A DNA stretch of 64,000 nt from a phage. Under the pieces are notes generated by a model. That model was not told the origin of the DNA, searched no databases, and saw nothing but the letters and a program-made list of their open reading frames with translations. A program made the translations under genes and the position numbers. The stretch lies in the NCBI GenBank assembly GCA_012490745.1, contig GCA_012490745.1_3925.1; one strand, given 5' to 3'. Below, in pieces: positions 12,871 through 24,658 of the stretch (position 1 is the first letter of the stretch; the number at the start of each line of letters is the position of its first letter).

Positions 12871-14003
12871 TACGCCTCCCCTGCTGGGTTAACTGTAACT
12901 GTTGCCGCATTAGATGTTACAGAGCCACCTGCACCAGTAACTACACAGGTGTAGCTTCCTGAATCAGCAGCGGTTGCACCTTCTTTGGTGTAAGTTGCAG
13001 TAGTTGCATCGAGGATGTCTTCCTCACCTTTCTTCCACTGGTAACCTGTTGCACCTGTTGCTACAACGTTAAGTGTTAATGTCTCACCTTCAGTGATTTC
13101 CTGATTGGTTGGCTGTTGAGTGATTACCGGAAGTGCTTTAACAGTAACTGTTGCAGGGCTAGAAGTAACAGAACCACCTGCACCTGTTACAACGCAAGTG
13201 TATGAACCTGCATCTGCTGGCAGAGCACCAGACTTGCTATAGGTAGCATTTGTCGCTGAAGGAATGTCAGAGCCATCTTTCTTCCATTGGTAACCAGTTG
13301 CACCAGTTGCAGTAACTGCTAAGTTGATGTTTCCACCTTCATTAATAGTCTGGTTAGAAGGTTGCTTGGTAATCACAGGTAGTGCGTTCACAGTCACTGT
13401 TGCTGCATCTGAGGTAACACTTGTTCCACCCTCTCCAGATACAACACAAGTGTATGAACCAGCGTCAGAAGGTGCTACTGACTGTTTTGTGTAAGTTGCA
13501 GAATTGGCACTAGGGATATTCTCACCATCCTTCTTCCACTGATATCCAGTGGCATTAGTTGCTAGAATGCTTAGAGTAAGTGTGCCACCATCATTGACTG
13601 TTTGACCTGTTGGTTGCTGAGTAATTGCTGGTGGCTTAATAGCATCCTTCAACTTAGCATTCAACATTGAGAACGGCTTAACTCTTGCCAACCATTCACA
13701 GTAAATTGTGTCAACATCTTTACCATTGATGATTGCATACTGCAAATCCATGAAGAAATCAGCAGTTCTCATCTGTGCACCAACACTGTAAAGCAATTCA
13801 TCACTAAATGGAACTTTGTAGTCTGGTTTGTAGTCAAACTTCTCAACTTCTGCAATATCAGCTTCAGGCCAATACGAGCTATAGGTAAGTGGTAAAATAG
13901 CCTCTTGATATGTTCTAAAATCATATCTCTTACCAGCCTTTACGTTTGCAATGAAGCCCTTCACAAACTCTTTGAAGTCTGGGTAAGTCTTTGCTTTAAT
14001 CAT
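12870..14003 (-). CDS. protein with N-terminal domain paralogous to the upstream gene plus three tandem Ig-like repeats (377 aa)
   Basis: Three ~90-aa repeats (QPTxQT(V/I)NxGG...ATGATGYQWKKDG...YT...AGSYTCVV(T/S)GxGGSVTS...ATVTV); ATGA overlap with 14000-14371. Confidence 0.65.
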   Translation of the reverse strand: MIKAKTYPDFKEFVKGFIANVKAGKRYDFRTYQEAILPLTYSSYWPEADIAEVEKFDYKPDYKVPFSDELLYSVGAQMRTADFFMDLQYAIINGKDVDTIYCEWLARVKPFSMLNAKLKDAIKPPAITQQPTGQTVNDGGTLTLSILATNATGYQWKKDGENIPSANSATYTKQSVAPSDAGSYTCVVSGEGGTSVTSDAATVTVNALPVITKQPSNQTINEGGNINLAVTATGATGYQWKKDGSDIPSATNATYSKSGALPADAGSYTCVVTGAGGSVTSSPATVTVKALPVITQQPTNQEITEGETLTLNVVATGATGYQWKKGEEDILDATTATYTKEGATAADSGSYTCVVTGAGGSVTSNAATVTVNPAGEA

Positions 14004-15236: not shown

Positions 15237-15400
15237 AGATAATCCTCTTGTCTTCTGTAATTTTGAAAGAACAGGTACAGACCAATTTCAGAGGATGAAT
15301 AGTAGATTAACTCTACCCTTTTTGATTCCTTACAGTGATTGGTATTCTTACCTTTCTTCGGTTTATTTGATTTTCTCATTAAGTCTCCTTTGTAGAACAA
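15218..15400 (-). CDS. hypothetical small basic protein (60 aa)
   Basis: ORF, first gene after the divergent promoter region. Confidence 0.35.
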   Translation of the reverse strand: MFYKGDLMRKSNKPKKGKNTNHCKESKRVELIYYSSSEIGLYLFFQNYRRQEDYLCVVPN

Positions 15401-15474
15401 GGCAGACCTACAGCTTTAACTAAGATGGTACAGTAATCCATACAACAAGTCAAGAACTATTGCAAGTTAAAAAA

Positions 15475-15516
15475 GTTGTTGACAAAGTACTTGACAAGGT
15501 GTAGGCTTATAAATAC
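15475..15516. promoter_or_regulatory. Divergent promoter region with tandem TTGACA boxes (gttgttgacaaagtacttgacaaggtg)
   Basis: A-tract plus two -35-like hexamers 13 nt apart; near-identical motif at 58173-58207. Confidence 0.5.
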
Positions 15517-15628
15517 TTAGAAGATAACTTAAAAGGTTCCTCTAAAAAGGCTATTTAAACAGATATCTTTCTGGATATCTATCTTTTATCTTAAAAGCCT
15601 TTTAAGAGGTCTTATAAGAGGCATACCA

Positions 15629-16000
15629 ATGAAAAACAGAACAAACAAAGGCCAGTTTAAAAAAGGCCAATCTGGAAACCCATCTGGAAGACCAAAAGGC
15701 TCTCGCAACAAAAGCTCACTTGTAAAAGCTCAACTGACCATTGACAATTCTGCTGAGTTTGCTGCAAAGTTATTTGAAGCGATTGTTACAAGGGATGCTG
15801 CTAAGCTTGCAGAGTTCGGGTTAAACACAGACGATGTAACCATCAAGAGTATGATTGAGGTCGGTAAAACTATCATGACTCACTCAGCAGGTGAGATGAA
15901 AGCAATTGCAGCAGACACTAAGAAGACTCCTGATAACAGTGGTCAGTCTCAGACAGACAACAAACCAACGTTCTCTGCTGTTGCAACCCTTAAAAAATAA
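15629..16000 (+). CDS. hypothetical protein with N-terminal KGQSGNPSGRPKG motif (123 aa)
   Basis: Basic Gly/Pro-rich N-terminus; the motif recalls uncharacterised phage protein families. Confidence 0.55.
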   Translation: MKNRTNKGQFKKGQSGNPSGRPKGSRNKSSLVKAQLTIDNSAEFAAKLFEAIVTRDAAKLAEFGLNTDDVTIKSMIEVGKTIMTHSAGEMKAIAADTKKTPDNSGQSQTDNKPTFSAVATLKK

Positions 16001-16081
16001 TTTTAAAAGATGTTGACAGACTCTATAAAGTTACTCTAAAGTCTGTCACATCAAACAACAAATGAGAGAAGAGAGTAAAAT

Positions 16082-17497
16082 ATGAGCGAGTTATTTAAAC
16101 ATGCGCACCTTCATGCAGGTCGAACTGAAAATGGTGCTGTAAACCATACTTCATCAATGTCTGCTCTTGTAGATTTTTACAAAGCTGCTGGTTCAAGCCG
16201 TAGCAATGTAGAAATCTTACCAGACTTGTTCTACAAAGCTTTGCGTGAGGATGTTGATGTTGCAGTTCGTATTTTACTGCATATGCGAGATGTACGAGAA
16301 GGTATGGGTGAGCGTAAAGCCTTCAGAACTGTTTTGCTTCAAGCGATTGAAGATAAAGTTTTAGAACCTACACAGGTTCTTCGCATTATGGATAAGATTG
16401 CAGAACTTGGTCGTTTTGATGACTTCAAAATCTTCGTAGGTACTCGTTTCGAGACAGATGCCTTCAAACATTTAGAAGCAGCATTACTAGACCATGCAAC
16501 AGCAGGTTTAGCAGCTAAGTGGTTGCCACGAGTAAAACCACGCCACAAACAGTTTGTAAAACGTTTCTGCAAGTTTGCCAACTTGAGTGAGAAAGAGTAC
16601 CGCACACTGTTGTCTGCACTATCTGATACAGTTGAGCAAAAAATCTCTGCTAATGAGTTTGGTAAGATTGATTACAGCAAGATTCCTTCACTTGCTGCTG
16701 CACGTTACCAAAAACTCTTTAACCGTAAAGATGGAGAGCGCTACAAAGCTTACATCGAGTCCTTATCAAAGGGTGAGACTAAGATTAATGCTGGTGCTGT
16801 TTACCCATACGATGTGATTAAATCTGTTAAGTATGGTAATGCAGATGTTGCTAATGAGCAGTGGAAAGCACTACCAAACTGGATGGCAGAGGGTGAAAAC
16901 ATTCTATGTATGTCTGATGTTTCAAGTTCAATGTCTTGGGTGAATTTTGGTTCAATTACTGCTCTTGATATTGGTGTTTCACTTGCATTGTATGTAGCAG
17001 AACGTAATACAGGTTGCTTTAAGAATGAGTTGATGGTTTATTCAACAAACCCTCACTTCATTGAACTGAGTGGTGATTTACGAAACCGTCATCGTCAGGT
17101 AATGCGTCATGTTGAATACGGTTCAACTAACTTACAAGCAGCTTTTGACCGCATTCTTGAGACAGGTAAGAGAAACAACTTGACTCAGAAAGATATGCCA
17201 AGTAAGCTTATCATCTTCTCTGATATGGAGTTCAATCAGGTTGACGGTGCAAATGGTCGTACAAACTTTGAAGCAATTCGTAGTAAGTACAAAAAAGCTG
17301 GATACGAAATGCCACAACTGGTATTCTGGTACTTAGCAAACCGTAGTGGTACTTGCGAAGTGTCTGTTAAGGATAACGGTGTAGCAATGGTATCAGGGTT
17401 CTCTCCAGCCACTTTAAAAGCTCTGCTTGGTGGTGAGAAGTTTGACCCAACCAGCGTAATGCTCAAAGCAGTAATGATTGACCGTTACATCTGGTAA
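16082..17497 (+). CDS. putative vWA/MIDAS-like domain protein (471 aa)
   Basis: Possible MIDAS-like D-x-S-x-S (MSDVSSSMS) followed by hydrophobic beta-strand-like segments and IIFSDMEF. Confidence 0.45.
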   Translation: MSELFKHAHLHAGRTENGAVNHTSSMSALVDFYKAAGSSRSNVEILPDLFYKALREDVDVAVRILLHMRDVREGMGERKAFRTVLLQAIEDKVLEPTQVLRIMDKIAELGRFDDFKIFVGTRFETDAFKHLEAALLDHATAGLAAKWLPRVKPRHKQFVKRFCKFANLSEKEYRTLLSALSDTVEQKISANEFGKIDYSKIPSLAAARYQKLFNRKDGERYKAYIESLSKGETKINAGAVYPYDVIKSVKYGNADVANEQWKALPNWMAEGENILCMSDVSSSMSWVNFGSITALDIGVSLALYVAERNTGCFKNELMVYSTNPHFIELSGDLRNRHRQVMRHVEYGSTNLQAAFDRILETGKRNNLTQKDMPSKLIIFSDMEFNQVDGANGRTNFEAIRSKYKKAGYEMPQLVFWYLANRSGTCEVSVKDNGVAMVSGFSPATLKALLGGEKFDPTSVMLKAVMIDRYIW

Positions 17498-17499
17498 AA

Positions 17500-17545
17500 A
17501 GTTTTAAAAAGGGTATTGACAATGTGTTTAATACCCTTTAATATG
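17500..17545 (+). promoter_or_regulatory. Sigma70-like promoter TTGACA-17nt-TAATAT upstream of the tRNA array
   Basis: gggtaTTGACAatgtgtttaataccctTTAATATg; second candidate TTGACA at 17609. Confidence 0.55.
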
Positions 17546-17662
17546 TTCTACATAGAAACGAAATGAGAGCTTTTCTAAGATACTGAAAAATATTTTAAAA
17601 AAGTTCTTGACAACCACTAAAAAATAATGTTAAAGTGGTTACATAGAGTTTGAAAAGTTTAT

Positions 17663-17739
17663 CTCTGTTTAGCTCAGCTTGGTAGAGCGTTCCGTTTGGG
17701 GCGGTAAGGCCGGAGGTTCAAGTCCTCCAACAGAGACCA
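17663..17739 (+). tRNA. tRNA-Pro (anticodon TGG)
   Basis: Acceptor ctctgtt/aacagag, T-arm ggagg-ttcaagt-cctcc, anticodon loop tttgggg, CCA encoded. Confidence 0.6.
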
Positions 17740-17746
17740 AATTAAT

Positions 17747-17824
17747 GTTCCAGTAGACAAAATGGTAAAGTCACCACTCTTTCAAAGTGGATATCTGAGG
17801 GTTCAAATCCCTTCTGGAACGCCA
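17747..17824 (+). tRNA. tRNA-Glu (TTC)
   Basis: Acceptor gttccag/ctggaac, anticodon arm ccact-ctttcaa-agtgg, T-loop ttcaaat, discriminator G. Confidence 0.7.
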
Positions 17825-17915
17825 GTTTTGACAGAAGACCAATTACAGCAAACTTAATCTTATTCATCTGAAGGTAAATCGGACAAAGAAGAGATTTGGT
17901 CTGGTCATTAAGAAT

Positions 17916-17992
17916 TGCGGGTATAGAGAAAGGGCGTCTCACATGTCTCATTAGCATGGTATCGGCAGGTTCGACTCCTGCACCCGCCTCCA
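17916..17992 (+). tRNA. tRNA-Met (CAT); possibly initiator
   Basis: Anticodon arm catgt-ctcatta-gcatg, T-arm gcagg-ttcgact-cctgc, 1:72 mismatch. Confidence 0.55.
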
Positions 17993-18069
17993 ATTTTGCA
18001 GAAGACCGTATTCAGCAACAAAATACTTTTTGCGGATAAAAGAAAAAACACGGTCTGGCAATGTATTAA

Positions 18070-18146
18070 GGTTAGGAAGCACATAAGGTATGTGCGGTCG
18101 CCTGTTAAGCGAATGGCACAGGGTTCGAATCCCTGACTAACCGCCA
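18070..18146 (+). tRNA. tRNA-Asn (GTT)
   Basis: Anticodon loop ctgttaa, T-arm caggg-ttcgaat-ccctg, CCA encoded. Confidence 0.65.
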
Positions 18147-18155
18147 AATTTAAAT

Positions 18156-18243
18156 GTGTCGTTATCCCGTAGATGGTAGCGGTGGGGACTGTAAATCCCT
18201 TGTCATTGAGACTCGGTAGGTTCGACTCCTACACGGCACACCA
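18156..18243 (+). tRNA. tRNA-Tyr (GTA), class II
   Basis: Anticodon arm gggga-ctgtaaa-tccct, long variable arm ttgtcattgagactcg, T-arm gtagg-ttcgact-cctac. Confidence 0.7.
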
Positions 18244-18249
18244 AATAAA

Positions 18250-18327
18250 GGTTATGTAGTTTAATCTGGTTAAAATACTCCCCTGTCACGGGAGATGATG
18301 AGGGTTCAAATCCCTTCGTAACCGCCA
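18250..18327 (+). tRNA. tRNA-Asp (GTC)
   Basis: Anticodon arm ctccc-ctgtcac-gggag, T-loop ttcaaat, discriminator G. Confidence 0.7.
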
Positions 18328-18643
18328 AATTATAATAAGTATTTCAAAATGATGTTTGAGAGGGCTATTTTAGCCCCTCCCTTAAAGAGTTCTTACGAGT
18401 ATTCTTTAAAGGAGCAGAAGACCAAATTCAGCAAGTACGTATGATATTTTCAAGCCAATTTAATTTTGAAAAAATTTATAAAACTTGGTCTGGCTCAACA
18501 ATTTTACAGAAGACCGTTTACAGCAAAACTTAAACAATCTATTTCTCCGGTAAAGAAAAGGCGAAGGTTCGATTCCTTCACTCGGCAGATGTCGAGTTGG
18601 TGTAATGGTAGCACTTAAGATGATAAACAACGGTCTGGTAATT

Positions 18644-18779
18644 ATCTTTGTAGATAAGTTATTAAGCTTACCTGTGAGTATGCGACCACAAAGGGTGAAA
18701 GGGTAAATTCTAGATTTAAACCCAAAAAGGCACATCGCTACAGACCTTAAGCAAGTCTGGGTAGCTTATCTACAAAGAT
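18644..18779 (+). ncRNA. Candidate structured small RNA: 15-bp perfect inverted repeat (atctttgtagataag / cttatctacaaagat) enclosing 106 nt with internal hairpins
   Basis: Perfect long-range stem plus internal hairpins cagac-cttaagcaa-gtctg and gggt...accc; lies between tRNA genes. Confidence 0.4.
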
Positions 18780-18787
18780 AATTTAAT

Positions 18788-18863
18788 GGAAGTGTAGCAG
18801 AATGGTGATGCGGCAGACTTTTAATCTGACAGGCGATGGGTTCGAATCCCTCCACTTCTACCA
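18788..18863 (+). tRNA. tRNA-Lys (TTT)
   Basis: Acceptor ggaagtg/cacttct, anticodon loop cttttaa, T-loop ttcgaat; paralog of 20023-20098. Confidence 0.6.
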
Positions 18864-18867
18864 AAAT

Positions 18868-18944
18868 GGTTCAGTCGCAGATAAGGTAATGCAAGGGTCT
18901 CATAAGCCCTATGAATGTGGGTTCGATTCCCATCTGAACCTCCA
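18868..18944 (+). tRNA. tRNA with CAT anticodon (elongator Met, or Ile2 if lysidine-modified)
   Basis: Acceptor ggttcag/ctgaacc, anticodon arm agggt-ctcataa-gccct, T-loop ttcgatt. Confidence 0.6.
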
Positions 18945-18945
18945 A

Positions 18946-19021
18946 GCTGGTATAGTTAAGAAGGTTATAACACTCCCCTGATAAGGGAACATCGGTGGTT
19001 CGATTCCACCTACCAGTACCA
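18946..19021 (+). tRNA. tRNA-Ile (GAT)
   Basis: D-arm gtta...taac, anticodon loop ctgataa, T-arm ggtgg-ttcgatt-ccacc. Confidence 0.65.
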
Positions 19022-19029
19022 ATTTCAAT

Positions 19030-19075
19030 AAAGTTGTTGACACTGAGATGTGACTACTTTATAGTAACCTTAGTT
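19030..19075 (+). promoter_or_regulatory. Internal promoter TTGACA-17nt-TATAGT within the tRNA array
   Basis: aaagttgTTGACActgagatgtgactacttTATAGTaacc. Confidence 0.55.
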
Positions 19076-19269
19076 TTCGTTGCGTAGCGTCTATTTTGCA
19101 AATTTAAAATAAATGCAAACGACAATGTTTTTCTGGCAGTAGCTTGATAGGCTAAACACCAGTGAGGTCTTCCAATCCCTCATCAAAGAATTTGGCGTAC
19201 TAGCCCACGGTATGATTAATAAGGTGGGCATCTTTAAGGGCTTTCTAAGAGAGTCTTTAAAGATAATTA

Positions 19270-19351
19270 CGGGGCGTATCTCAGCGGTCTTCTAAACCGC
19301 CGTTAACCGAGTAAGTGGAGTATGCGGGTTCGAGTCCTGCCGCCTCGACCA
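19270..19351 (+). tRNA. atypical tRNA-like gene (candidate Arg-TCT); cloverleaf not resolved
   Basis: Good acceptor cggggcg/cgcctcg and T-arm gcggg-ttcgagt-cctgc; perfect hairpin gcggt-cttctaa-accgc sits where the D-arm should be. Confidence 0.4.
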
Positions 19352-19494
19352 ATTTAGTTAGCAGATTACTTAGACGACCTAAGCGGGTCTTCCTGTAGGG
19401 AGGTGGTCTGTATCTCATGTTTTCCAGAACATGTAAATAATCTGAGAAGGGGCTTTACAGTGTTGAGATAATACGGTAAGCTTCGAATTATAGT

Positions 19495-19577
19495 ATGGGA
19501 CGATGTTAAGACTCTAAGGCATGAGCAACGGCCTCCAAAACCGTTTCAAAGGGGTTCAACTCCTCCGTCCCATGCCA
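19495..19577 (+). tRNA. tRNA-like gene, candidate Trp (CCA), with 7-8 extra nt in the 5' region
   Basis: Perfect acceptor atgggac/gtcccat, anticodon loop ctccaaa, T-loop ttcaact. Confidence 0.45.
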
Positions 19578-19590
19578 AAGTCTTATTAGG

Positions 19591-19680
19591 GGTAGGTAGC
19601 GGCTAATGGCAGCCAAACAGTCTTGAAAACTGTTGCCACTGTAGAGATACGGTGAGGGTTCGACTCCTTTACTTACCGCC
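19591..19680 (+). tRNA. tRNA-Ser (TGA), class II
   Basis: Anticodon arm acagt-cttgaaa-actgt, long variable arm, T-arm gaggg-ttcgact-ccttt, discriminator G. Confidence 0.65.
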
Positions 19681-19937
19681 TAATAAGATTTTTAAAGCCA
19701 AGCTTCATTCGGATGTTGCTTTGGTATACCGCGTGTATTGTCGTACACACAGATAAAGCACCTAGTAGGTGTCACGGAGAAGAGATAATATCAAGCTCTC
19801 CAAAGGTTCTAGTCACCGGATTAAACAAGACTATGCAAAGGCCTTTTTAGGTCTTTTTAGAGGGCTTCTAAGGTTATTACAGCTTGTTGTGGAACCTTGT
19901 TGCTTAGGTTCTTAGAAGTTCTCTAAAAAGATTTAAT

Positions 19938-20015
19938 GGGAGATTGACGGTAATTGGTAAACCTACCATCCTTAGAAGTTGGTGTTTGAGGGTTCGAATC
20001 CCTTGTCTCCTACCA
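19938..20015 (+). tRNA. tRNA with TAG anticodon (Leu) but class I length
   Basis: Anticodon arm ccatc-cttagaa-gttgg, Leu-like D-loop aattggtaaac, discriminator A, T-arm gaggg-ttcgaat-ccctt. Confidence 0.5.
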
Positions 20016-20022
20016 AATTAAT

Positions 20023-20098
20023 GCAGGTGTAGCAAAATGGTTATGCGGCTGACTCTTAATCAGTAAGACGATGGGTTCAATTCCCTCCACCTGTACCA
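20023..20098 (+). tRNA. tRNA-Lys (CTT)
   Basis: Anticodon arm gctga-ctcttaa-tcagt, T-loop ttcaatt, acceptor gcaggtg/cacctgt. Confidence 0.6.
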
Positions 20099-20104
20099 AA
20101 CAAT

Positions 20105-20180
20105 GGGGATGTAGTTTACATGGTTAAAACATAAGTTTTGCAAACTTAAGTACAGGGTTCAATTCCCTGCTTCTCCACCA
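20105..20180 (+). tRNA. tRNA-Ala (TGC)
   Basis: D-arm gttt...aaac, anticodon arm taagt-tttgcaa-actta, T-arm caggg-ttcaatt-ccctg. Confidence 0.65.
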
Positions 20181-20186
20181 ATTAGT

Positions 20187-20261
20187 GCATCCATAGTTTA
20201 AACGGGAAAATTACAGTCTTCCAAACTGAGGTTGAGGGTTCGATTCCCTCTGGATGCTCCA
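20187..20261 (+). tRNA. tRNA-Gly (TCC)
   Basis: Perfect acceptor gcatcca/tggatgc, anticodon loop cttccaa, T-arm gaggg-ttcgatt-ccctc. Confidence 0.65.
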
Positions 20262-20266
20262 AACAA

Positions 20267-20344
20267 TGCTGCTTTCGTATAATTGGCTATTACACATCCC
20301 TTGTAAGGATGGAAATGCAGGTTCGAGTCCTGTGAGCAGCACCA
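20267..20344 (+). tRNA. tRNA-Thr (TGT)
   Basis: Anticodon arm catcc-cttgtaa-ggatg, T-loop ttcgagt. Confidence 0.65.
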
Positions 20345-20440
20345 ATTCAGAGGTCAAGTGAAAGACCGCTTTGAGTCAACTGAAGACCGTAACAAATTCC
20401 ACGGAGTTGAGTTAGCGGCACAACTCCAGACCTCTTTCAT

Positions 20441-20515
20441 ACTCGCTTAGTTTATATGGTAAAACATCACCCTTACAAGATGAAGAAAAAGGTTCAAGTC
20501 CTTTAGTGAGTACCA
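20441..20515 (+). tRNA. tRNA-Val (TAC)
   Basis: D-arm gttt-atatggta-aaac, anticodon loop cttacaa, T-arm aaagg-ttcaagt-ccttt. Confidence 0.6.
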
Positions 20516-20516
20516 T

Positions 20517-20594
20517 GTTCCAGTATCCCAATTGGCAGAGGATGCAAGCTCAAACCTTGTACTAGTGACGGTTCGAATCCGTCTTGGAACACCA
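20517..20594 (+). tRNA. tRNA with CAA anticodon (Leu) but short variable arm
   Basis: Anticodon arm (t)gcaag-ctcaaac-cttgt(a), Leu-like D-loop aattggcagag, discriminator A, T-arm gacgg-ttcgaat-ccgtc. Confidence 0.5.
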
Positions 20595-20599
20595 ATTTT

Positions 20600-20675
20600 G
20601 CAGGATTAGTTCAAATGGATAGAGCAACAGTCTACGAAGCTGTTAATAGGGGTTCGAATCCCTTATCCTGCGCCA
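20600..20675 (+). tRNA. tRNA-Arg (ACG)
   Basis: Perfect acceptor gcaggat/atcctgc, anticodon arm acagt-ctacgaa-gctgt, T-loop ttcgaat. Confidence 0.65.
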
Positions 20676-20694
20676 ATTTAAAGAGGCTATTTAG

Positions 20695-21252
20695 ATGAGA
20701 TATTTGAAGTATGCTTCATGGATTTTCTTAGCTTTGTTAGAGCCATTTGCAGCAATCTTAGCAGTTATCTTAGCACCTTTTGTAGTTCCATTCTACAGTG
20801 AGAAGAAAGGACACTTACCTTTCGGGTTCAGATGGATGGAGACATATGACAACCCAATTGATGGTGATGAAGGTCACGTTAAAAGATGGGCTAATATTAG
20901 ATGGATTGGTAAACTAGGTGTCTACATGCAAAGAGTCGGATGGCTCTGGAGAAACAAAGCTTATAACTTCTCTTACCATGTATTAGGAAGAGATGTAAGA
21001 GATGTTACTAAGTGGAAAGGTAATATCAACGTAAGTTCTGACCCCGAAGATAATCAGACAGGTTATCTCCTAATGTGGAACAGTAATGCTTGGGGATTAT
21101 TCGCTTTTATCCCATCAATTAAAATCTTTGGTAAACAGTTTTACTGGAGAATTTATATTGGATGGAAACTTAAAAGTGTTGTCCCAGAAGAAAGAGCATT
21201 CTCAAGGGAAAGAGTTATGTTGGCATTCTTTATTCATCCACTGAGAAAGTAA
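20695..21252 (+). CDS. hypothetical Trp-rich membrane protein (185 aa) embedded in the tRNA array
   Basis: ORF with SD aaGAGG; N-terminal TM helix (WIFLALLEPFAAILAVILAPFVVPF). Confidence 0.55.
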   Translation: MRYLKYASWIFLALLEPFAAILAVILAPFVVPFYSEKKGHLPFGFRWMETYDNPIDGDEGHVKRWANIRWIGKLGVYMQRVGWLWRNKAYNFSYHVLGRDVRDVTKWKGNINVSSDPEDNQTGYLLMWNSNAWGLFAFIPSIKIFGKQFYWRIYIGWKLKSVVPEERAFSRERVMLAFFIHPLRK

Positions 21253-21260
21253 AGATTTAA

Positions 21261-21336
21261 AGGGGATTAGTTTACAAGGTTAAAACCTCGGTCTTTGAAA
21301 TCGAAGAAGTTGGTTCAATTCCAACATCCCCCGCCA
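21261..21336 (+). tRNA. tRNA-Gln (TTG)
   Basis: Anticodon arm tcggt-ctttgaa-atcga, T-arm gttgg-ttcaatt-ccaac, A1:C72 mismatch. Confidence 0.55.
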
Positions 21337-21338
21337 AT

Positions 21339-21416
21339 GCTCCATTACTCCAATTGGCAGAGAGGCCAGACTTAAAATCTGTGTTATGTATCGGTTCGAA
21401 TCCGATATGGAGTACC
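21339..21416 (+). tRNA. tRNA with TAA anticodon (Leu) but short variable arm
   Basis: Paralog of 20517-20594 (D-loop aattggcagag), anticodon loop cttaaaa, discriminator A. Confidence 0.5.
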
Positions 21417-21422
21417 AAATTT

Positions 21423-21497
21423 AGCGGTATAGCATAACTGGCAATGCAACAGTCTCTGAAGCTGTCCTATTAAGGTTCAAATCCTTATGCCGCTGCC
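21423..21497 (+). tRNA. tRNA-Gln (CTG)
   Basis: D-arm gcat...atgc, anticodon arm acagt-ctctgaa-gctgt, T-arm taagg-ttcaaat-cctta. Confidence 0.55.
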
Positions 21498-21529
21498 ACT
21501 TCTAAGGATTCTTACGAGAGTCCTTAAAT

Positions 21530-21605
21530 GTGGCCTTATCATAAAAGGTAATGACCCATGCTGTGAACATGGTCTATACGGGTTCAAATCCCGTAGGTCA
21601 CCCCA
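21530..21605 (+). tRNA. tRNA-His (GTG)
   Basis: Anticodon arm ccatg-ctgtgaa-catgg, discriminator C73, T-arm acggg-ttcaaat-cccgt. Confidence 0.65.
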
Positions 21606-21610
21606 ATTTA

Positions 21611-21688
21611 TAGTCCAAGTAGCTTATATGGTTAAAGCGCGTGTCTGAAAAACATGAGAAGAGGGTTCAAATCCCACTGGACTACCAA
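21611..21688 (+). tRNA. tRNA-Phe (GAA)
   Basis: Perfect acceptor tagtcca/tggacta, anticodon loop ctgaaaa, T-loop ttcaaat. Confidence 0.65.
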
Positions 21689-21703
21689 TTTCAAAGGTGC
21701 TTA

Positions 21704-22438
21704 ATGAAAGAGATGACAGAACAAGGTAAGGAGATTTTTAATCTCTTAAAAACTGGTAAAGGGTTTTCTAACCCCCTTATTACTGGTGCAGCAGTTCTCG
21801 GTGGAACCGTAGCTGCCTCTACATCACTTGTAAGCTCTATTAGCTCTGTATCAGACCCTACAGTAAAGGATAAGCTTGTTGCTGCTGGACTTACAACAGT
21901 TCTGCTTAACAGCTTTACCACGAGTCTGACAAGCACTACATCAACTACCAAAACACTAACAGATTACGGTCAAAAGTCCATTGATGAGTTTTCATCACGT
22001 ATGCAGGTAGCAAAAGGTTATTCTAATGTTATGGGTGCAGCAGGTGAACAAGTTGGCTGTACACCATTTAGTGGTATTATGGGTGTTGCTACAGAGTATG
22101 GTCAAAAAGCTATTGATACGATTAACAGTACACTAGATAGTGTTAATGGTGTGTTAAGTGACTTACAAGATGCTATTGATAAGGGTCTTGATACTGTTTC
22201 TGATTTAGCTAATCAGGCTGTTAGCAAGATTAATGAAGGTATCTCAAAGATTACAGCTTATGCAGATGAAGTTGTGCAGATGATTGAAGAAGAAGCTGCC
22301 CTTATTGCAGAGTACCTTAAAACGAATATCAATGGGTTCTTAGCAGGTATCTTACCAGACTGGTTTGATGATGCTTGTAAAACTGGTGTGATTGACACTA
22401 TTGCAACACCAGAAATGAAGAACGCATTACAGAAATAA
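21704..22438 (+). CDS. hypothetical Ser/Thr-rich protein (244 aa)
   Basis: The ORF-track start 21641 lies inside tRNA-Phe; ATG 21704 has SD aaaGGtg 5 nt upstream. Confidence 0.5.
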   Translation: MKEMTEQGKEIFNLLKTGKGFSNPLITGAAVLGGTVAASTSLVSSISSVSDPTVKDKLVAAGLTTVLLNSFTTSLTSTTSTTKTLTDYGQKSIDEFSSRMQVAKGYSNVMGAAGEQVGCTPFSGIMGVATEYGQKAIDTINSTLDSVNGVLSDLQDAIDKGLDTVSDLANQAVSKINEGISKITAYADEVVQMIEEEAALIAEYLKTNINGFLAGILPDWFDDACKTGVIDTIATPEMKNALQK

Positions 22439-22439
22439 T

Positions 22440-22532
22440 GGAAGATTAACCCTAAAAGGTAAGGGAGCAGTTTGCTAAACTGCCAGTAGCTGAGAAATCG
22501 GTGTACCAGTTCAAGTCTGGTATCTTCCTCCA
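22440..22532 (+). tRNA. tRNA-Ser (GCT), class II
   Basis: Perfect acceptor ggaagat/atcttcc, anticodon arm gcagt-ttgctaa-actgc, long variable arm, T-arm accag-ttcaagt-ctggt. Confidence 0.7.
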
Positions 22533-22536
22533 ATTT

Positions 22537-22612
22537 GAATCCGTGACAGAAATGGCTATGTGCCTGTCTGCAAAACAGGTTTATAAGGGTTCGAGTCCCT
22601 TCGGATTCTCCA
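22537..22612 (+). tRNA. tRNA-Cys (GCA)
   Basis: Perfect acceptor gaatccg/cggattc, anticodon arm cctgt-ctgcaaa-acagg, discriminator U73. Confidence 0.7.
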
Positions 22613-23035: not shown

Positions 23036-23056
23036 TTCTATTTGCGGAGGTGCTTA

Positions 23057-24658
23057 ATGGACTTAAATGCTGTTAAGCAGAAGCGAGTGGAAGATGTTAG
23101 GAAAGTCCTAGCTGGAGAGTTGGGGCTTTCTGATGAAGTAAAAGAAATTATCAAATCATTCGGTAAAGACCCCTCTAAATTCCTTCCAACTCAAATTCTG
23201 ACTTTATTAAGATACACACCAGACCAAGTTAGACTTATCTTCAAATTGATGACTGATAAGAACTATGTAGCCCCTCAGCCGGGTTCTCAAGAGGTCTTTT
23301 TAAATACTAATGCTGACTTGGTTCTCTATGGTGGTGCTGCGGGTGCTGGTAAGACTGCTGCATTGTTAATGGACTCTTTAAGGTTTATTGAAGACCCTAA
23401 CTATAATGCTGTATATTTCCGTCGAAATACAACACAGTTACAAGGTGGTTTATGGCCTGCTGCAAAGAAACTATTTGGTAAGTTTGGTGGGGTTCCTCAC
23501 GAGCAGAAGATGACTATCACATTCCCTTCTGGGGCAACTATCAAGTTTACCTATCTAGAACTTGAAAAGCACGCTGAAGGTCATCAGGGTATTGAATACT
23601 CAGCTATTTACTTTGACGAAGGTACACACTTCTCTGCTTCACAGATTTCATACCTACAGACTCGTCTACGTTCTGGGGCTGAAGGTGATTCATACATGAA
23701 GATTTCTATGAACCCAGACAGAGACCACTTTATTTACGATTGGGTAGAACCATTCTTAGATGAAGAAGGTTATCCAGACCCTGAAAAGTGTGGTCGTATT
23801 CGTTGGTATGTAATGAATGACGGTGTGATGGTTTCTGATTGGGAGAGAGACAAGATTCTTGAAATGTTCCCTCTTGAGATTCCTCAAACATACACCTTTA
23901 TCTCTGGTACGATTGATGATAACCCAATCCTTGACTTCTTAGAGCCTAAGTACCGTGGTAAGTTGGAAAACAACACCCCTGTAAACGTTGCAAGACTTCG
24001 TTTCGGTAACTGGAAGGCTCGTGCAGAAGGTTCAAACTATTGGCAAAGACAATGGTGTGAGATTGTTGATTCACTCCCAGAAGATGTATTCGATGTTAGA
24101 GCATGGGACTTAGCAGCAACTTTACCATCTGAGGTTAACCCTAATCCAGACTGGACAGCAGGTGTTAAGATGGGTAAATCTAAAAAAGACGGTTGCTATT
24201 ATATCATTGATGTAGTAAGATTTAGAGATAGACCCTCTGGAGTCGAAACACAAATTAATTTGACTGCTGAAAGTGACGGTAAGCGAACTGGTATTTTTAT
24301 CCCTCAAGACCCAGGCGCTGCTGGTAAATCCTACGCAACATCCCTCATCAGGAAACTTGCCGAGAAAGGCTATCGTGCAAGAGCTAAACCAACAAATAAA
24401 GATAAAGTTACCCGCTTTGCGGGATTTTCTGCTGCTTCTGAAGCTGGACTTGTAAAAGTCTTGAGAGGTAGTTGGAATGAAGCTTACTTTCAAGAGCTTG
24501 AAGGCTTTTGTGGTGATGGCAAAACTAAAGATGACCAAGTGGATGCTACCAGTGATGCTTTCAACAGTCTTAACGAAGTTAAATTATTCAAGCCACCATC
24601 AATGGGTGCTCACACAGACTTAGTGAGGGGAAACCCATATGAGGGGCTTAGACGTTGA
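23057..24658 (+). CDS. terminase large subunit (533 aa)
   Basis: Walker A-like LYGGAAGAGKTAA, Walker B-like IYFDEGTHF, C-terminal nuclease-like acidic motifs; SD GGAGG before ATG 23057. Confidence 0.85.
   Translation: MDLNAVKQKRVEDVRKVLAGELGLSDEVKEIIKSFGKDPSKFLPTQILTLLRYTPDQVRLIFKLMTDKNYVAPQPGSQEVFLNTNADLVLYGGAAGAGKTAALLMDSLRFIEDPNYNAVYFRRNTTQLQGGLWPAAKKLFGKFGGVPHEQKMTITFPSGATIKFTYLELEKHAEGHQGIEYSAIYFDEGTHFSASQISYLQTRLRSGAEGDSYMKISMNPDRDHFIYDWVEPFLDEEGYPDPEKCGRIRWYVMNDGVMVSDWERDKILEMFPLEIPQTYTFISGTIDDNPILDFLEPKYRGKLENNTPVNVARLRFGNWKARAEGSNYWQRQWCEIVDSLPEDVFDVRAWDLAATLPSEVNPNPDWTAGVKMGKSKKDGCYYIIDVVRFRDRPSGVETQINLTAESDGKRTGIFIPQDPGAAGKSYATSLIRKLAEKGYRARAKPTNKDKVTRFAGFSAASEAGLVKVLRGSWNEAYFQELEGFCGDGKTKDDQVDATSDAFNSLNEVKLFKPPSMGAHTDLVRGNPYEGLRR

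What the first reader, a model, noticed from the sequence alone, without database searches (positions are those of the whole stretch)
15629..17497. vWA/MIDAS-like protein paired with a GNPSGRPKG-motif protein upstream of the tRNA array
Gene 16082-17497 contains a possible MIDAS-like D-x-S-x-S motif (MSDVSSSMS) in a vWA-like context; gene 15629-16000 carries a conserved basic N-terminal motif seen in uncharacterised phage proteins. Both are expressed divergently from the minus-strand block, with a hairpin tgacagact...agtctgtca between them.
Basis: inference. Interest (0 to 1): 0.4.

Follow-up and report, generated by a model that had tools for sequence, protein, structure and literature searches.

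The report
Phage Ro60-like protein and Y RNAs
The larger gene encodes a ring-shaped Ro60-like RNA-binding protein, which in a near-identical phage is already known to disarm a bacterial defence, and its probable small-RNA partners lie unannotated among the neighbouring tRNA genes; the small gene is more likely the phage's DNA-packaging small terminase than a partner of the large one.

Summary
The window is a Felix O1-like phage (Felixounavirus). Both ORFs, the D-x-S-x-S motif and the inverted repeat are real.

ORF 16082-17497 (DUF2828+DUF7788) is more than a vWA protein. Its confident AlphaFold model matches full-length Ro60 (helical ring plus vWA), and all five MIDAS residues are invariant. 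It is 97% identical to Bas63 gp130, which a 2024 preprint showed to counter the Ppl defence and noted to resemble Ro60.

New here are three unannotated Y-RNA-like elements in the head of the tRNA array, on the same strand: 17829-17907, 17997-18060 and 18505-18640. The last carries a circularly permuted tRNA-like domain like that of bacterial YrlA. A covariance model built without any Felix-like sequence finds it (E 1e-8). The same RNA family flanks DUF2828-type genes in 30 of 75 divergent phage loci, always on the gene's strand, with strong covariation and no hits in control loci.

ORF 15629-16000 (DUF5681) has an AT-hook-like motif. In other phages DUF5681 genes sit directly upstream of the large terminase (most of 52 cases), and relatives keep the gene without the Ro60-like gene. 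So it is probably the small terminase, and the "pair" is juxtaposition. The hairpin overlaps a sigma-70-like promoter and is not conserved.

The parts
15629..16000 (+). DUF5681 protein (123 aa, pI 9.95). It has a disordered basic N-terminus, two long helices and a disordered tail. Probable terminase small subunit.
   Evidence: Pfam DUF5681 2e-14 and phrog_4114. AlphaFold pLDDT 69, helices at residues 28-54 and 72-98. Of 52 genes found directly downstream of DUF5681 ORFs in other viral contigs, 44 match Terminase_3, with smaller counts for other TerL families. The order DUF5681, tRNA array, TerL, portal is conserved in L174, L175 and L177.
15665..15718 (+). AT-hook-like motif GQSGNPSGRPKGSRNKSS (residues 13-30), the invariant core of DUF5681.
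   Evidence: K12, G13, N17, P18, G20, R21, P22, G24 and N27 are invariant in 29 sequences. The best PDB profile match is the HMGA1 AT-hook peptide 2ezd, PRGRPKGSKNKG against PsGRPKGSrNKs, E 0.13.
16013..16048 (+). Sigma-70-like promoter (TTGACA, 18 nt, TAAAGT) for the Ro60-like gene.
   Evidence: In Michonne the hexamers are conserved but the repeat is not.
16082..17497 (+). Ro60-like protein (471 aa; DUF2828 + DUF7788). Orthologue of Bas63 gp130, the anti-Ppl counter-defence protein.
   Evidence: AlphaFold pLDDT 89, pTM 0.88. The Foldseek PDB top 11 are all Ro60 (TMq up to 0.66, E 5e-8 to 2e-6). BFVD matches TROVE/Ro-like phage proteins after the DUF2828 family. 97% identical to bas63_0130. 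Experimental data are in PMC11482910.
16163..16870 (+). All-helical N-terminal region (residues about 28-263), corresponding to the TROVE/HEAT-repeat ring of Ro60. It has many invariant Arg/Lys in inter-helix loops (R40, R69, R72, R78, R111, K146, R150).
   Evidence: Secondary structure of the model, invariant columns, full-length Ro60 matches.
16901..17449 (+). vWA domain (residues 274-456) with the MIDAS residues D279, S281, S283 (nt 16916-16930), T349 and D381.
   Evidence: DUF7788 2.5e-43. VWA_2 in 21/35 and vWA_Ro60 in 4/35 family members. Invariant residues.
17516..17636 (+). Two sigma-70-like promoter sites (17516-17544 and 17607-17636) ahead of the tRNA/Y-RNA array. Each overlaps its own inverted repeat.
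17829..17907 (+). Short Y-RNA-like element Ya, between tRNA-Glu and tRNA-Met. Outer helix UGAC/GUCA, P1 AGACCAA/UUGGUCU, motif UUACAGCAA.
   Evidence: Sequence and fold. Its 5' part is a paralogue of Yc (blastn). P1 differs from Yb and Yc by compensatory changes. The CM did not report it at E<=1 in the window, so it is the weakest of the three.
17997..18060 (+). Short Y-RNA-like element Yb, between tRNA-Met and tRNA-Asn. Outer helix UGC/GCA, P1 AGACCGU/ACGGUCU, motif UUCAGCAA. No tRNA-like domain.
   Evidence: Model R2, built without Felix-like sequences, gives 26.1 bits, E 0.014, at 18001-18066. Fold.
18505..18640 (+). Long Y-RNA-like element Yc, between tRNA-Asp and tRNA-Lys. Outer helix UAC/GUA; P1 18511-18518/18629-18636; motif CAGCAA 18521-18526. 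It carries a circularly permuted tRNA-like domain: anticodon-arm-like hairpin 18542-18558, T arm 18563-18579, acceptor stem closed by a tetraloop 18580-18597, D arm about 18599-18615.
   Evidence: Leave-one-out model R2: 58.6 bits, E 1.3e-8, the top hit in the 64-kb window. The Rfam tRNA model aligns the 3' two-thirds. Present in 252 phage records, unannotated or under spurious ORFs. The acceptor hairpin shows compensatory changes within Ounavirinae.
17663..22612 (+). Array of 25 tRNA genes in which the Y-like RNAs are embedded. It separates the DUF5681 gene from TerL.
23042..24658 (+). Terminase large subunit, the likely true partner of the DUF5681 protein.
   Evidence: phrog_979 1e-233; annotation of wV8 and SeKF_63.

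Best explanation
The 471-aa gene encodes a divergent Ro60-type protein: a ring of helical repeats capped by a vWA domain with a metal-binding MIDAS site. It is the Felixounavirus orthologue of Bas63 gp130. For that protein it is shown experimentally in the literature that it counteracts the Ppl defence (ATPase + PHP nuclease), and that it does so on its own in phage T7.

I infer that in the phage it works as a Ro60-Y RNA ribonucleoprotein. Its RNA partners would be three unannotated Y-like RNAs transcribed with the first tRNAs of the array from the promoters at 17516 and 17607. Each has a terminal bulged helix followed by a conserved (U)UYCMGCAA motif, which is the likely protein-binding module. 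The longest also carries a closed, circularly permuted tRNA-like domain like that of bacterial YrlA.

By analogy with Rsr/YrlA/PNPase and with Thermus phage phiLo Ro60-Yrl, the particle probably binds RNA ends or host RNA-decay and RNA-repair enzymes, and so protects phage RNAs (tRNAs in particular) during infection. This last step is inference.

The 123-aa DUF5681 protein is not part of this machine. It is most likely the small terminase. It would bind AT-rich DNA through an AT-hook-like arm, and its partner TerL lies 7 kb downstream. The Ro60-like gene and the tRNA/Y-RNA array lie between the two.
For: Fold and family
- Confident model. The top 11 PDB matches are all Ro60 over the full length.
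- TROVE/Ro-like phage proteins follow in BFVD.
- MIDAS residues are invariant. vWA_2 and vWA_Ro60 sequence hits occur in family members.

Identity
- 97% identical to bas63_0130 with the same synteny.
- The phenotypes are reported in PMC11482910.

RNA partners
- The elements have T arm, then closed acceptor hairpin, then D arm, inside a long stem.
- Rfam YrlA aligns exactly this core in a family member: 41.9 bits, E 4e-8, below the gathering score.
- RNAalifold on a plain MAFFT alignment finds 17 of 18 pairs with compensatory changes.
- On 49 distinct sequences, 94% of cells pair. The covariation score is 0.398, against 0.10 in shuffles and 0.04-0.06 in slid controls.
- Leave-one-out detection in the window: E 1.3e-8.
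- There are 52 hits in 31 sources, all on the gene's strand, at a median of 211 nt from the gene.
- There are 0 hits in 474 kb of control viral loci.

tRNA link
- 230 tRNAs lie in 875 kb around DUF2828-type genes, against 3 in 443 kb of controls.
- All 338 tRNAs found are on the gene's strand.

DUF5681
-.
Against: - No Pfam TROVE hit by sequence, and no PDB hit by sequence. Homology with Ro60 therefore rests on predicted structure and context.
- I could not inspect coordinates, so ring closure and the RNA-binding surfaces are not verified.
- Rfam YrlA does not hit the window element itself.
- The Y-like RNAs have not been shown to be expressed or bound.
- gp130 alone rescues T7 on Ppl hosts, so the anti-Ppl activity does not require phage Y-like RNAs.
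- Only 30 of 75 divergent loci gave a Y-like hit.
- Alignment A8 was fitted to the model, and the E-values come from a shortened calibration.
- For the small terminase reading: only the N-terminal roughly 40 residues link the Felix-type protein to the TerL-adjacent DUF5681 genes; Foldseek found no known small terminase; no essentiality data were found for Bas63 gene 129 (no supplements held).
Confidence: 0.68

Rival explanations
1. A vWA/MIDAS protein and the GNPSGRPKG-motif protein form a two-gene module that works together, co-regulated through the hairpin between them.
For: The two genes are adjacent, on the same strand and conserved together in 250 or more Felix-like phages. They are also together in a relative whose Ro-like protein is only 47% identical (L012).
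Against: - 0 of 74 other DUF2828-type loci have a DUF5681 gene within 6 kb.
- Pectobacterium phage Wc4-1 and marine relatives keep DUF5681, the tRNA array and TerL without the large gene.
- DUF5681 elsewhere is followed by TerL.
- gp130 acts alone in T7.
- Each gene has its own promoter-like site.
- The hairpin is not conserved.
Confidence: 0.07
2. The Ro60-like protein is a stand-alone protein inhibitor. It blocks Ppl directly, for example through its MIDAS face. The Y-like elements are unrelated spacers, processing signals or decayed tRNAs of the array.
For: gp130 alone, from a plasmid or inserted in T7, restores plaquing on Ppl hosts, and T7 has no such RNAs. MIDAS sites are classical protein-ligand sites. 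The role of MIDAS in Ro60 is unknown (PMC12135203).
Against: - The Y-like elements also flank the gene in loci without any tRNA (L051, L052, L062, L064, L068, L076).
- They are always on its strand and lie at a median of 211 nt.
- They are absent from controls.
- P1 covaries in 8 of 8 pairs.
- Short forms have no tRNA-like part, so they are not decayed tRNAs.
- The helical ring is as conserved as the vWA domain.

The two readings can coexist: the protein could inhibit Ppl alone and also form an RNP.
Confidence: 0.2
3. The DUF5681 protein is an AT-hook DNA- or RNA-binding regulator, for example of early/late transcription or of the tRNA array, and not a small terminase.
For: - It sits at the head of the plus-strand block next to a divergent promoter region that is about 10-fold enriched in WTATCT repeats in four lineages.
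- Only the N-terminal motif is shared with TerL-adjacent DUF5681 proteins.
- There is no structural match to solved small terminases.
Against: Most of the 52 genes directly downstream of DUF5681 ORFs in other phages are TerL (44 match Terminase_3). No other small terminase candidate is annotated in Felix-like genomes. The 66-aa ORF just upstream of TerL is acidic (pI 4.4). Synteny with TerL and portal is kept across lineages.
Confidence: 0.3

Closest known systems
Bas63 (Escherichia phage JohannRWettstein) gp130, counter of the Ppl defence (PhageMaP preprint, PMC11482910)
   Same: 97% identical, 471 aa, in the same position between the DUF5681 gene and tRNA-Pro. The preprint already notes the structural similarity to Ro60, and speculates that some of the annotated tRNAs might be Y RNAs.
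   Different: The protein is essentially the same. The preprint names no RNA. The candidates found here are not annotated tRNAs; they are unannotated elements in array gaps, which in Bas63 lie under the minus-strand 'hypothetical' CDSs bas63_0137 and bas63_0138.
Bacterial Ro60 (Rsr) with YrlA/YrlB Y RNAs (Chen et al. 2014, PMC4201824; Rfam RF02553)
   Same: - The protein has a ring plus a vWA/MIDAS domain.
- One or more ncRNAs lie within a few hundred nt to about 1 kb on the same strand.
- One RNA has T, acceptor-stem-like and D stem-loops in permuted order; shorter RNAs lack them.
- There is a conserved 5' motif next to the terminal helix.
   Different: - The protein family is DUF2828/DUF7788, not Pfam TROVE, and is 12-16% identical to solved Ro60s.
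- The 5' motif is C(A/C)GCAA rather than GNCGAA(N)G.
- The outer stem is not matched by the Rfam model.
- There are no rtcBA neighbours.
- The module sits inside phage tRNA arrays.
Thermus phage phiLo Ro60 with Yrl1/Yrl2 (PMC12135203; PDB 9KOP, 9L5Y)
   Same: A phage-encoded Ro60 with phage-encoded Y-like RNAs next to the gene. 9KOP is the best structural match by E-value. It binds host PNPase and attenuates it, which is a precedent for a counter-host role.
   Different: TM-score is only about 0.5 and identity 15-16%. The phiLo RNAs lie upstream of the gene and were picked by CGAA motifs. No link to a tRNA array or to Ppl is known.
Terminase small subunits / Pfam DUF5681
   Same: Size of about 100-150 aa, a basic N-terminal DNA-binding arm followed by long helices, and a gene directly upstream of and overlapping TerL in most DUF5681 loci.
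   Different: In this phage the gene lies 7 kb from TerL. DUF5681 has no assigned function in Pfam, PHROGs or NCBIfam. There is no fold match to solved small terminases.
HMGA AT-hook (PDB 2EZD)
   Same: PSGRPKGSRNKS against PRGRPKGSKNKG: the GRP core with the flanking K-G-S-x-N-K.
   Different: Ser replaces the Arg that precedes the G-R-P core. The match is short (E 0.13). There is a single copy rather than three.
Promoter-embedded stem-loops of T4-like phages (PeSLs; recalled from the literature, not checked here)
   Same: Sigma-70-like promoters at 16013, 17516, 17607 and 19037 each overlap an inverted repeat of unrelated sequence. The same style is seen in L012.
   Different: The repeats are not conserved in sequence or position, and the one in the finding loses pairing in Michonne.

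Membership tests
Ro60 / TROVE-vWA RNA-binding proteins | Single chain made of a helical-repeat (HEAT/TROVE) ring followed by a vWA domain | tested here: met
   AlphaFold pLDDT 89, helices at residues 28-263 and an alpha/beta domain at 274-447. The Foldseek top 11 PDB hits are all Ro60, with 509-558 aligned columns and probability 1.0.
Ro60 / TROVE-vWA RNA-binding proteins | Sequence match to the Pfam TROVE domain (PF05731) | tested here: not met
   No TROVE hit at E<=1 for the protein, nor at E<=10 for 35 family members. Only vWA_Ro60 hits 4 of 35, best E 0.002. No sequence hit to any PDB Ro60.
Ro60 / TROVE-vWA RNA-binding proteins | Complete MIDAS motif (D-x-S-x-S ... T ... D) in the vWA domain | tested here: met
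   D279, S281, S283, T349 and D381 are invariant in alignment A1.
Ro60 / TROVE-vWA RNA-binding proteins | Y RNA genes close by on the same strand | tested here: met
   Yc lies 1.0 kb downstream (R2 58.6 bits, E 1.3e-8) and Yb 0.5 kb downstream (E 0.014). The family is found in 31 sources, all on the same strand, at a median of 211 nt. There are no hits in controls.
Ro60 / TROVE-vWA RNA-binding proteins | Binds Y RNA and misfolded RNA; associates with exoribonucleases | not testable with these tools
   Needs RIP, EMSA or structural work.
YrlA-type Y RNA (Rfam RF02553) | tRNA-like domain with T arm, closed acceptor-like stem-loop and D arm, in that order | tested here: met
   Window 18563-18615. 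T loop UUCGAUU; D loop with GG. The Rfam YrlA model aligns the same core in family member L019.
YrlA-type Y RNA (Rfam RF02553) | Score at or above the Rfam gathering threshold (69 bits) | tested here: not met
   No YrlA hit on the window element at E<=10. L019 reaches 41.9 bits, and only over model positions 24-84.
YrlA-type Y RNA (Rfam RF02553) | 5' motif GNCGAA(N)G next to the terminal helix | tested here: inconclusive
   The motif at the terminal helix is C(A/C)GCAA. The single GGCGAAG in 15-23 kb (18560) overlaps the T arm and is within chance expectation.
Terminase small subunit | Gene directly upstream of the large terminase gene | tested here: inconclusive
   Met for the DUF5681 family at large: of 52 downstream genes, 44 match Terminase_3. 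Not met literally in this window, where the gap is 7 kb. The order DUF5681, tRNA array, TerL, portal is conserved.
Terminase small subunit | N-terminal DNA-binding element plus helical oligomerisation core forming a ring | tested here: inconclusive
   There is an AT-hook-like arm and two long helices (pLDDT 69). Oligomer prediction was not possible, and no fold match to known small terminases was found.
Intrinsic terminator (for the intergenic hairpin) | GC-rich stem followed by a T tract | tested here: not met
   The terminator scan does not call it. The 3' flank is CACATCAAACAAC.

The most novel reading that the evidence does not exclude
DUF2828/DUF7788 proteins form a second, large branch of Ro60 ribonucleoproteins with their own class of Y RNA. 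The family has thousands of members in phages, and BFVD and Pfam also place members in giant eukaryotic viruses. In tailed phages the protein plus its Y RNAs would be a mobile 'head-of-tRNA-array' module. It would guard phage tRNAs and other RNAs against RNA-directed host immunity, with Ppl as the first known target. That would imply that Ppl senses or attacks RNA rather than DNA.
Probability: 0.3. Interest if true: 0.75.

Novelty: new variant of a known kind. Interest (0 to 1): 0.55.

Why it matters
The protein's Ro60-like fold and its anti-Ppl activity are already published for a 97%-identical orthologue, so that part is known. What is new:

- **Candidate RNA partners.** They turn an uncharacterised "DUF" counter-defence protein into a testable Ro60-Y RNA particle. 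They give exact coordinates for RNAs that genome annotations currently cover with spurious ORFs in more than 250 phage genomes.
- **Link to tRNA arrays.** DUF2828-type genes are tied to tRNA arrays across unrelated phages. This bears on why phages carry tRNA arrays and how they resist RNA-targeting defences.
- **A small terminase candidate.** Felix O1-like phages are used for Salmonella typing and biocontrol and have no annotated small terminase. DUF5681 is a widespread family with no assigned function.

Tried and rejected
- **Sequence searches against PDB.** The single protein and the 35-sequence profile gave only noise (uridine kinase, S21). Only the fold comparison worked.
- **Rfam on the window.** On 14-24 kb, 18.3-19.6 kb and 18.48-18.67 kb it found no Y RNA family. 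On 11 tRNA-less loci at gathering thresholds it found only two tmRNAs.
- **A conserved protein partner of the Ro60-like gene.** Clustering of neighbours in 75 loci gave ClpP, DnaJ, homing endonucleases and unknowns. There was no RtcB, RNA ligase or kinase, and nothing present in more than 17 loci.
- **DUF5681 as that partner.** Rejected.
- **The GNCGAA(N)G motif scan.** It gave one hit, within chance expectation. It was useful only because it drew attention to the T arm.
- **An inner stem P2 (CUUA/UAAG) in Yc.** It is not supported by SUSP2, Sf17 or Michonne. D-arm and P2 registers differ between family members, so they were left out of the models.
- **Single-sequence folding energies.** They are not significant for the Y-like elements (z -1.1 to -1.9). 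The support is comparative.
- **Structure of the small protein.** Only moderate confidence (pLDDT 69). The BFVD search returned only DUF5681 proteins. NCBIfam has nothing for either protein.
- **Literature.** The PhageMaP and Chen 2014 supplements are not held, so I found no fitness value for Bas63 gene 129 and could not check the list of 22 phages with YrlA. Searches for DUF2828, DUF5681, the Ppl mechanism and a Felixounavirus small terminase gave nothing decisive.
Full report
**What the window is.** The region 15400-17650 is 99.3% identical to Enterobacteria phage KhF3 and 96-97% identical to Felix O1, wV8 and about 250 other Felixounavirus records. In wV8 the two ORFs are gp46 ("DUF5681 domain-containing protein") and gp47 ("RNA-binding protein"). 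They are followed by the tRNA array and then by terL.

**Checking the observation.** Both ORFs exist at the stated coordinates.
- The small ORF matches Pfam DUF5681 (2e-14) and phrog_4114.
- The large ORF matches DUF7788 (2.5e-43), DUF2828 (3e-29) and phrog_850, which PHROGs labels "RNA-binding protein" (4e-183).
- The DVSSS motif is at residues 279-283.
- The 9-bp inverted repeat is at 16014-16022 / 16040-16048.
- The minus-strand block ends near 15400, so the arrangement is divergent.
- 25 tRNAs follow from 17663.

**The large protein is Ro60-like, not just a vWA protein.** I built an alignment of 35 homologues at 40-89% identity.
- The AlphaFold model has mean pLDDT 89 and pTM 0.88. Residues about 28-263 are all helical, and residues 274-447 form an alpha/beta domain.
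- The 11 best Foldseek matches in the PDB are all Ro60: Thermus phage phiLo 9KOP/9L5Y, Xenopus 2I91/1YVR/1YVP, Deinococcus Rsr 2NVO, and human complexes 9NFA/9NEP. E-values run from 5e-8 to 2e-6, TM-score reaches 0.66, and the alignments span the whole chain. Isolated vWA domains (Ku80, MDN1, CLCA1) come next at E about 3e-3.
- In BFVD, other DUF2828/DUF7788 proteins come first, from jumbo phages, Pithovirus, Marseillevirus and Mimiviridae. They are followed by a TROVE-domain protein of a crAss-like phage and a "Ro-like RNA binding protein" of a Gordonia phage.
- By sequence the link is thin. There is no TROVE hit and no PDB hit. VWA_2 hits 21 of 35 members and vWA_Ro60 hits 4 of 35.
- All five MIDAS residues (D279, S281, S283, T349, D381) are invariant. 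So are many Arg/Lys in the inter-helix loops of the N-terminal half.

**What is already known.** The PhageMaP preprint (PMC11482910) reports the following for gene 130 of phage Bas63.
- It is a counter of the Ppl defence, a single protein with ATPase and PHP domains.
- Its deletion shrinks plaques on Ppl hosts, and complementation restores them.
- The protein resembles Ro60.
- It lies just upstream of the tRNAs, "some of which are possibly Y RNAs".
- gp130 alone, from a plasmid or inserted into T7, restores T7 growth on Ppl hosts.

I fetched Bas63 (MZ501086). bas63_0130 is 471 aa, sits between bas63_0129 and tRNA-Pro, and is 97% identical to the window protein. bas63_0129 is 98% identical to the small ORF. 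The biological role of the large gene is thus partly established by experiment on an orthologue. The mechanism is not.

**Association with tRNA arrays.** A scan of IMG/VR returned 80 loci, 75 of them only 38-47% identical to the window protein.
- 26 of these 75 have three or more tRNAs within 6 kb.
- All 338 tRNAs in the 33 tRNA-bearing loci are on the strand of the gene. 274 lie downstream and 64 upstream.
- tRNA density is 230 per 875 kb. In 74 unrelated viral loci collected for the small protein it is 3 per 443 kb. This control is not matched for phage type.
- No protein-coding neighbour recurs in more than 17 loci, and there are no RNA-repair genes.

**Y-RNA-like partners.** A scan for the bacterial Y-RNA motif gave a single hit at 18560, which is no more than chance. 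It lies on a perfect tRNA T arm in a 460-nt gap of the array. Reading on from there, the sequence gives:
- a T arm, GAAGG-UUCGAUU-CCUUC;
- then an acceptor-like stem closed by a tetraloop, ACUCGGC-AGAU-GUCGAGU;
- then a D arm, GGUGU-AAUGGUA-GCACU;
- preceded by an anticodon-arm-like hairpin;
- all enclosed by the long-range helix AGACCGUU/AACGGUCU.

The minimum-free-energy fold gives exactly this cloverleaf, opened between the D arm and the anticodon arm. The Rfam tRNA model aligns its 3' two-thirds. This circularly permuted, closed tRNA mimic is the architecture described for bacterial YrlA (T, AS, D and V stem-loops).

A pattern search for "T arm followed by a closed 7-bp hairpin" then found similar elements in nine divergent DUF2828-type loci. 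All are on the gene's strand, and ARAGORN calls none of them a tRNA. They share a terminal helix whose sequence differs from locus to locus. A conserved UU-C(A/C)GCAA motif follows its 5' strand, and (C)UGAUA follows its 3' strand.

**Tests of the RNA family.**
1. RNAalifold on a plain MAFFT alignment of nine sequences recovers the terminal helix, the T arm and part of the acceptor hairpin. 17 of 18 pairs show compensatory double changes.
2. A covariance model built from them (R1) finds 87 matches at E<=1 in 975 kb of DUF2828-type loci, all on the plus strand. It finds none in 474 kb of control viral loci.
3. The curated Rfam YrlA model aligns the core of the L019 element (inner stem, T arm, closed hairpin, D arm; model positions 24-84) at 41.9 bits, E 4e-8. 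This is below its gathering score of 69, and the outer module is not matched.
4. Leave-one-out: model R2 was built from 16 sequences, none from a Felix-like phage. In the whole 64-kb window, both strands, it finds 18509-18646 as the top hit (58.6 bits, E 1.3e-8). It also finds a second element at 18001-18066 (26 bits, E 0.014).
5. R2 gives 52 hits at E<=0.05 in 31 sources, all on the gene's strand. The median distance to the gene is 211 nt, and 21 of 31 sources have a hit within 300 nt. Hits often come as two or three tandem copies.
6. On that alignment, 94.4% of cells form standard pairs, and 17 of 18 pairs have changes on both sides. The covariation score is 0.398, against 0.10 in shuffles (0 of 500 reach it) and 0.04-0.06 when partners are slid by 1-3 columns. 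All eight pairs of the terminal helix covary. That alignment is fitted to the model, which inflates pairing. Test 1 is free of this bias.
7. Within Ounavirinae, Yc is present in 252 phage records, practically the same set as the gene (253 records). It is unannotated or lies under "hypothetical" ORFs.
8. In an alignment with SUSP2, Sf17, ESh22 and Michonne, the terminal module and the T and D arms are invariant. The acceptor hairpin changes with full compensation: ACUCGGC/GUCGAGU, then ACACG/CGUGU, then ACCCUUC/GAAGGGU. Indels are not multiples of three, which argues against the annotated minus-strand ORFs.

**Three copies in the window.** The window has three paralogous elements.

| Element | Coordinates | Outer helix | P1 | Notes |
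|---|---|---|---|---|
| Ya | 17829-17907 | UGAC/GUCA | AGACCAA/UUGGUCU | short |
| Yb | 17997-18060 | UGC/GCA | AGACCGU/ACGGUCU | short |
| Yc | 18505-18640 | UAC/GUA | AGACCGUU/AACGGUCU | long, with the tRNA-like domain |

They differ from one another by compensatory changes. The terminal module is a bulged helix (outer helix, AGA/G bulge, P1) followed by the conserved motif. The two short forms have no tRNA-like domain, so they are not decayed tRNAs. Ya rests on sequence paralogy and folding only.

**The small protein.**
- DUF5681 is defined by the invariant core K-G-x-S-G-N-P-x-G-R-P-K-G-S-x-N.
- The best PDB match of the profile is the HMGA1 AT-hook peptide: PRGRPKGSKNKG against PsGRPKGSrNKs. 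The match is short and E is only 0.13.
- The model (pLDDT 69) has a disordered basic N-terminus (pI 11.8 over residues 1-40), helices at 28-54 and 72-98, and a disordered tail.
- Context is informative. In L090 and L091 a DUF5681 gene overlaps the start of TerL. In L087-L089 one sits between a ParB-methylase gene and a 470-aa gene with no Pfam match.
- In 74 non-Felix IMG/VR loci I located the DUF5681 ORF in 57. In 52 of these an ORF of 150 aa or more starts within -80 to +400 nt downstream on the same strand. Of those 52, 44 match Terminase_3, 42 Terminase_3C, 36 Terminase_6N, 5 Terminase_6C and 5 the T7-type RNaseH-like domain; these counts overlap.
- Felix-like genomes have no annotated small terminase. 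The 66-aa ORF just upstream of TerL is acidic.
- Full-length relatives of the window protein occur in Pectobacterium phage Wc4-1 (51% identical) and in marine contigs (36%). They keep the order minus-strand lysis block, DUF5681, tRNA array, small ORFs, TerL, portal, but have no Ro60-like gene.
- Conversely, none of 74 non-Felix DUF2828-type loci has a DUF5681 gene.

The adjacency in the finding is therefore lineage-specific juxtaposition. The simplest reading is that the tRNA array lies between terS and terL in this lineage, and that the Ro60-like gene with its Y RNAs sits at the head of the array in Felix-like phages. The small terminase assignment is an inference (about 0.5). Only the N-terminal 40 residues are shared with the TerL-adjacent proteins, and no fold match to known small terminases was found.

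**The hairpin.** The repeat overlaps a TTGACA-18-TAAAGT promoter-like site with an A-rich upstream stretch.
- Transcription from that site would start at about 16049, so the stem would not be in the downstream mRNA.
- In a read-through transcript the stem would not be followed by a T tract.
- Similar promoter-like sites at 17516, 17607 and 19037 each overlap a different inverted repeat, and L012 shows the same style.
- In Michonne the two hexamers are kept, but the 5' arm changes without compensation.

I treat the hairpin as a property of the promoter region, with no evidence of selection on the pairing.

**Mechanism: what is shown and what is inferred.**
- Shown by others, on a 97%-identical protein: it counters Ppl, and it suffices in T7.
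- Shown here computationally: the Ro60-like fold with an intact MIDAS; the conserved, covarying Y-like RNA family next to the gene; the link to tRNA arrays.
- Inferred: the protein binds these RNAs through the terminal module. The particle acts on RNA ends or on host RNA-decay and RNA-repair enzymes, as in Rsr/YrlA/PNPase and phiLo Ro60. This would protect phage RNAs.
- Open: gp130 alone rescues T7, so either Ppl inhibition is a protein-only activity or host RNAs can substitute.

**Limits.**
- CM E-values come from a shortened calibration.
- 45 of 75 divergent loci gave no Y-like hit.
- The tRNA control set is not matched.
- No expression data were available.

Noticed in passing
window 15520-15600; L012 5380-5430; L177 8840-8975; L178 40-70: The region just upstream of the DUF5681 gene carries 4-5 copies of WTATCT (GATATCT/TTATCTT) in about 100-200 nt, roughly ten times the window average. 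This holds in four diverged lineages. It could be an operator set or a packaging (pac) site next to the putative small terminase gene.
   Followed up: partly
window 16013, 17516, 17607, 19037 (+); also 1309, 2176, 4200, 15479, 58176: There is a family of sigma-70-like promoter sites with an A-rich upstream stretch (AAAAAGTTGTTGACA). The four around the Ro60-like gene and the array each overlap an inverted repeat of unrelated sequence. This is reminiscent of the promoter-embedded stem-loops of T4-like phages.
   Followed up: partly
window 19270-19348 (+): A tRNA-like gene is missed by ARAGORN but scores 31.7 bits with Rfam tRNA. It has about 20 extra nt between the anticodon arm and the T arm, and only 4 nt where the model expects the 15-position D arm. 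Bas63 annotates the equivalent as tRNA-Arg(AGA) and wV8 as a pseudo-tRNA.
   Followed up: no
window 18963-19268 (+); L046 11822-12178; L047 12119-12481: There are weak tmRNA and permuted-tmRNA matches in the array gap after tRNA-Ile (28.8 and 15.4 bits, below threshold). Full tmRNA genes (61-66 bits) lie about 4.5 kb downstream of the Ro60-like gene, on the same strand, in two tRNA-less marine phage loci.
   Followed up: no
window 18460-18735 (-); wV8 gp048; bas63_0137/0138; SeKF_63 CDS0031/0032: Hypothetical-protein ORFs annotated in GenBank records overlap the Yc element. Other small ORFs overlap tRNAs. Indels that are not multiples of three among relatives argue that these ORFs are spurious.
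   Followed up: partly
L177 9480-9720 (Pectobacterium phage Wc4-1): The 480-nt gap between the DUF5681 gene and the first tRNA holds a T-arm-like GCAGG-UUCGAUA-CCUGU in a phage that lacks the Ro60-like gene. Neither ARAGORN nor model R2 calls anything there. It may be a remnant or another structured RNA.
   Followed up: no
window 21641-22438 (+) and 20695-21252 (+): Two protein genes sit inside the tRNA array. One is a 265-aa Ser/Thr/Ala-rich protein (phrog_2114; weak similarity to tape-measure proteins and a 'GTP-binding domain' PHROG; DUF7217 in Wc4-1). The other is a 185-aa hydrophobic protein (phrog_2143).
   Followed up: no
window 12870-14003 (-): A 377-aa 'tail protein' has three tandem Ig-like repeats (TGYQWKKDG...GSYTCVV). 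Bas63 annotates it as an immunoglobulin-like domain protein, just upstream of the endolysin.
   Followed up: no
L012-L086 (IMG/VR loci): In marine and freshwater phage contigs the DUF2828-type gene often lies near ClpP-like protease (17 loci) and DnaJ-like (12 loci) genes and near homing endonucleases. Many loci carry two or three tandem Y-like RNAs directly upstream or downstream of the gene.
   Followed up: partly
L087/L088 5001-5405 (bacterial contig GCA_041643195.1): A DUF5681 gene sits between a ParB-N6/N4 methylase gene and a 470-aa gene with no Pfam match, next to a JetC/JetD-like (Wadjet) pair. This looks like a prophage packaging module beside a defence locus.
   Followed up: no
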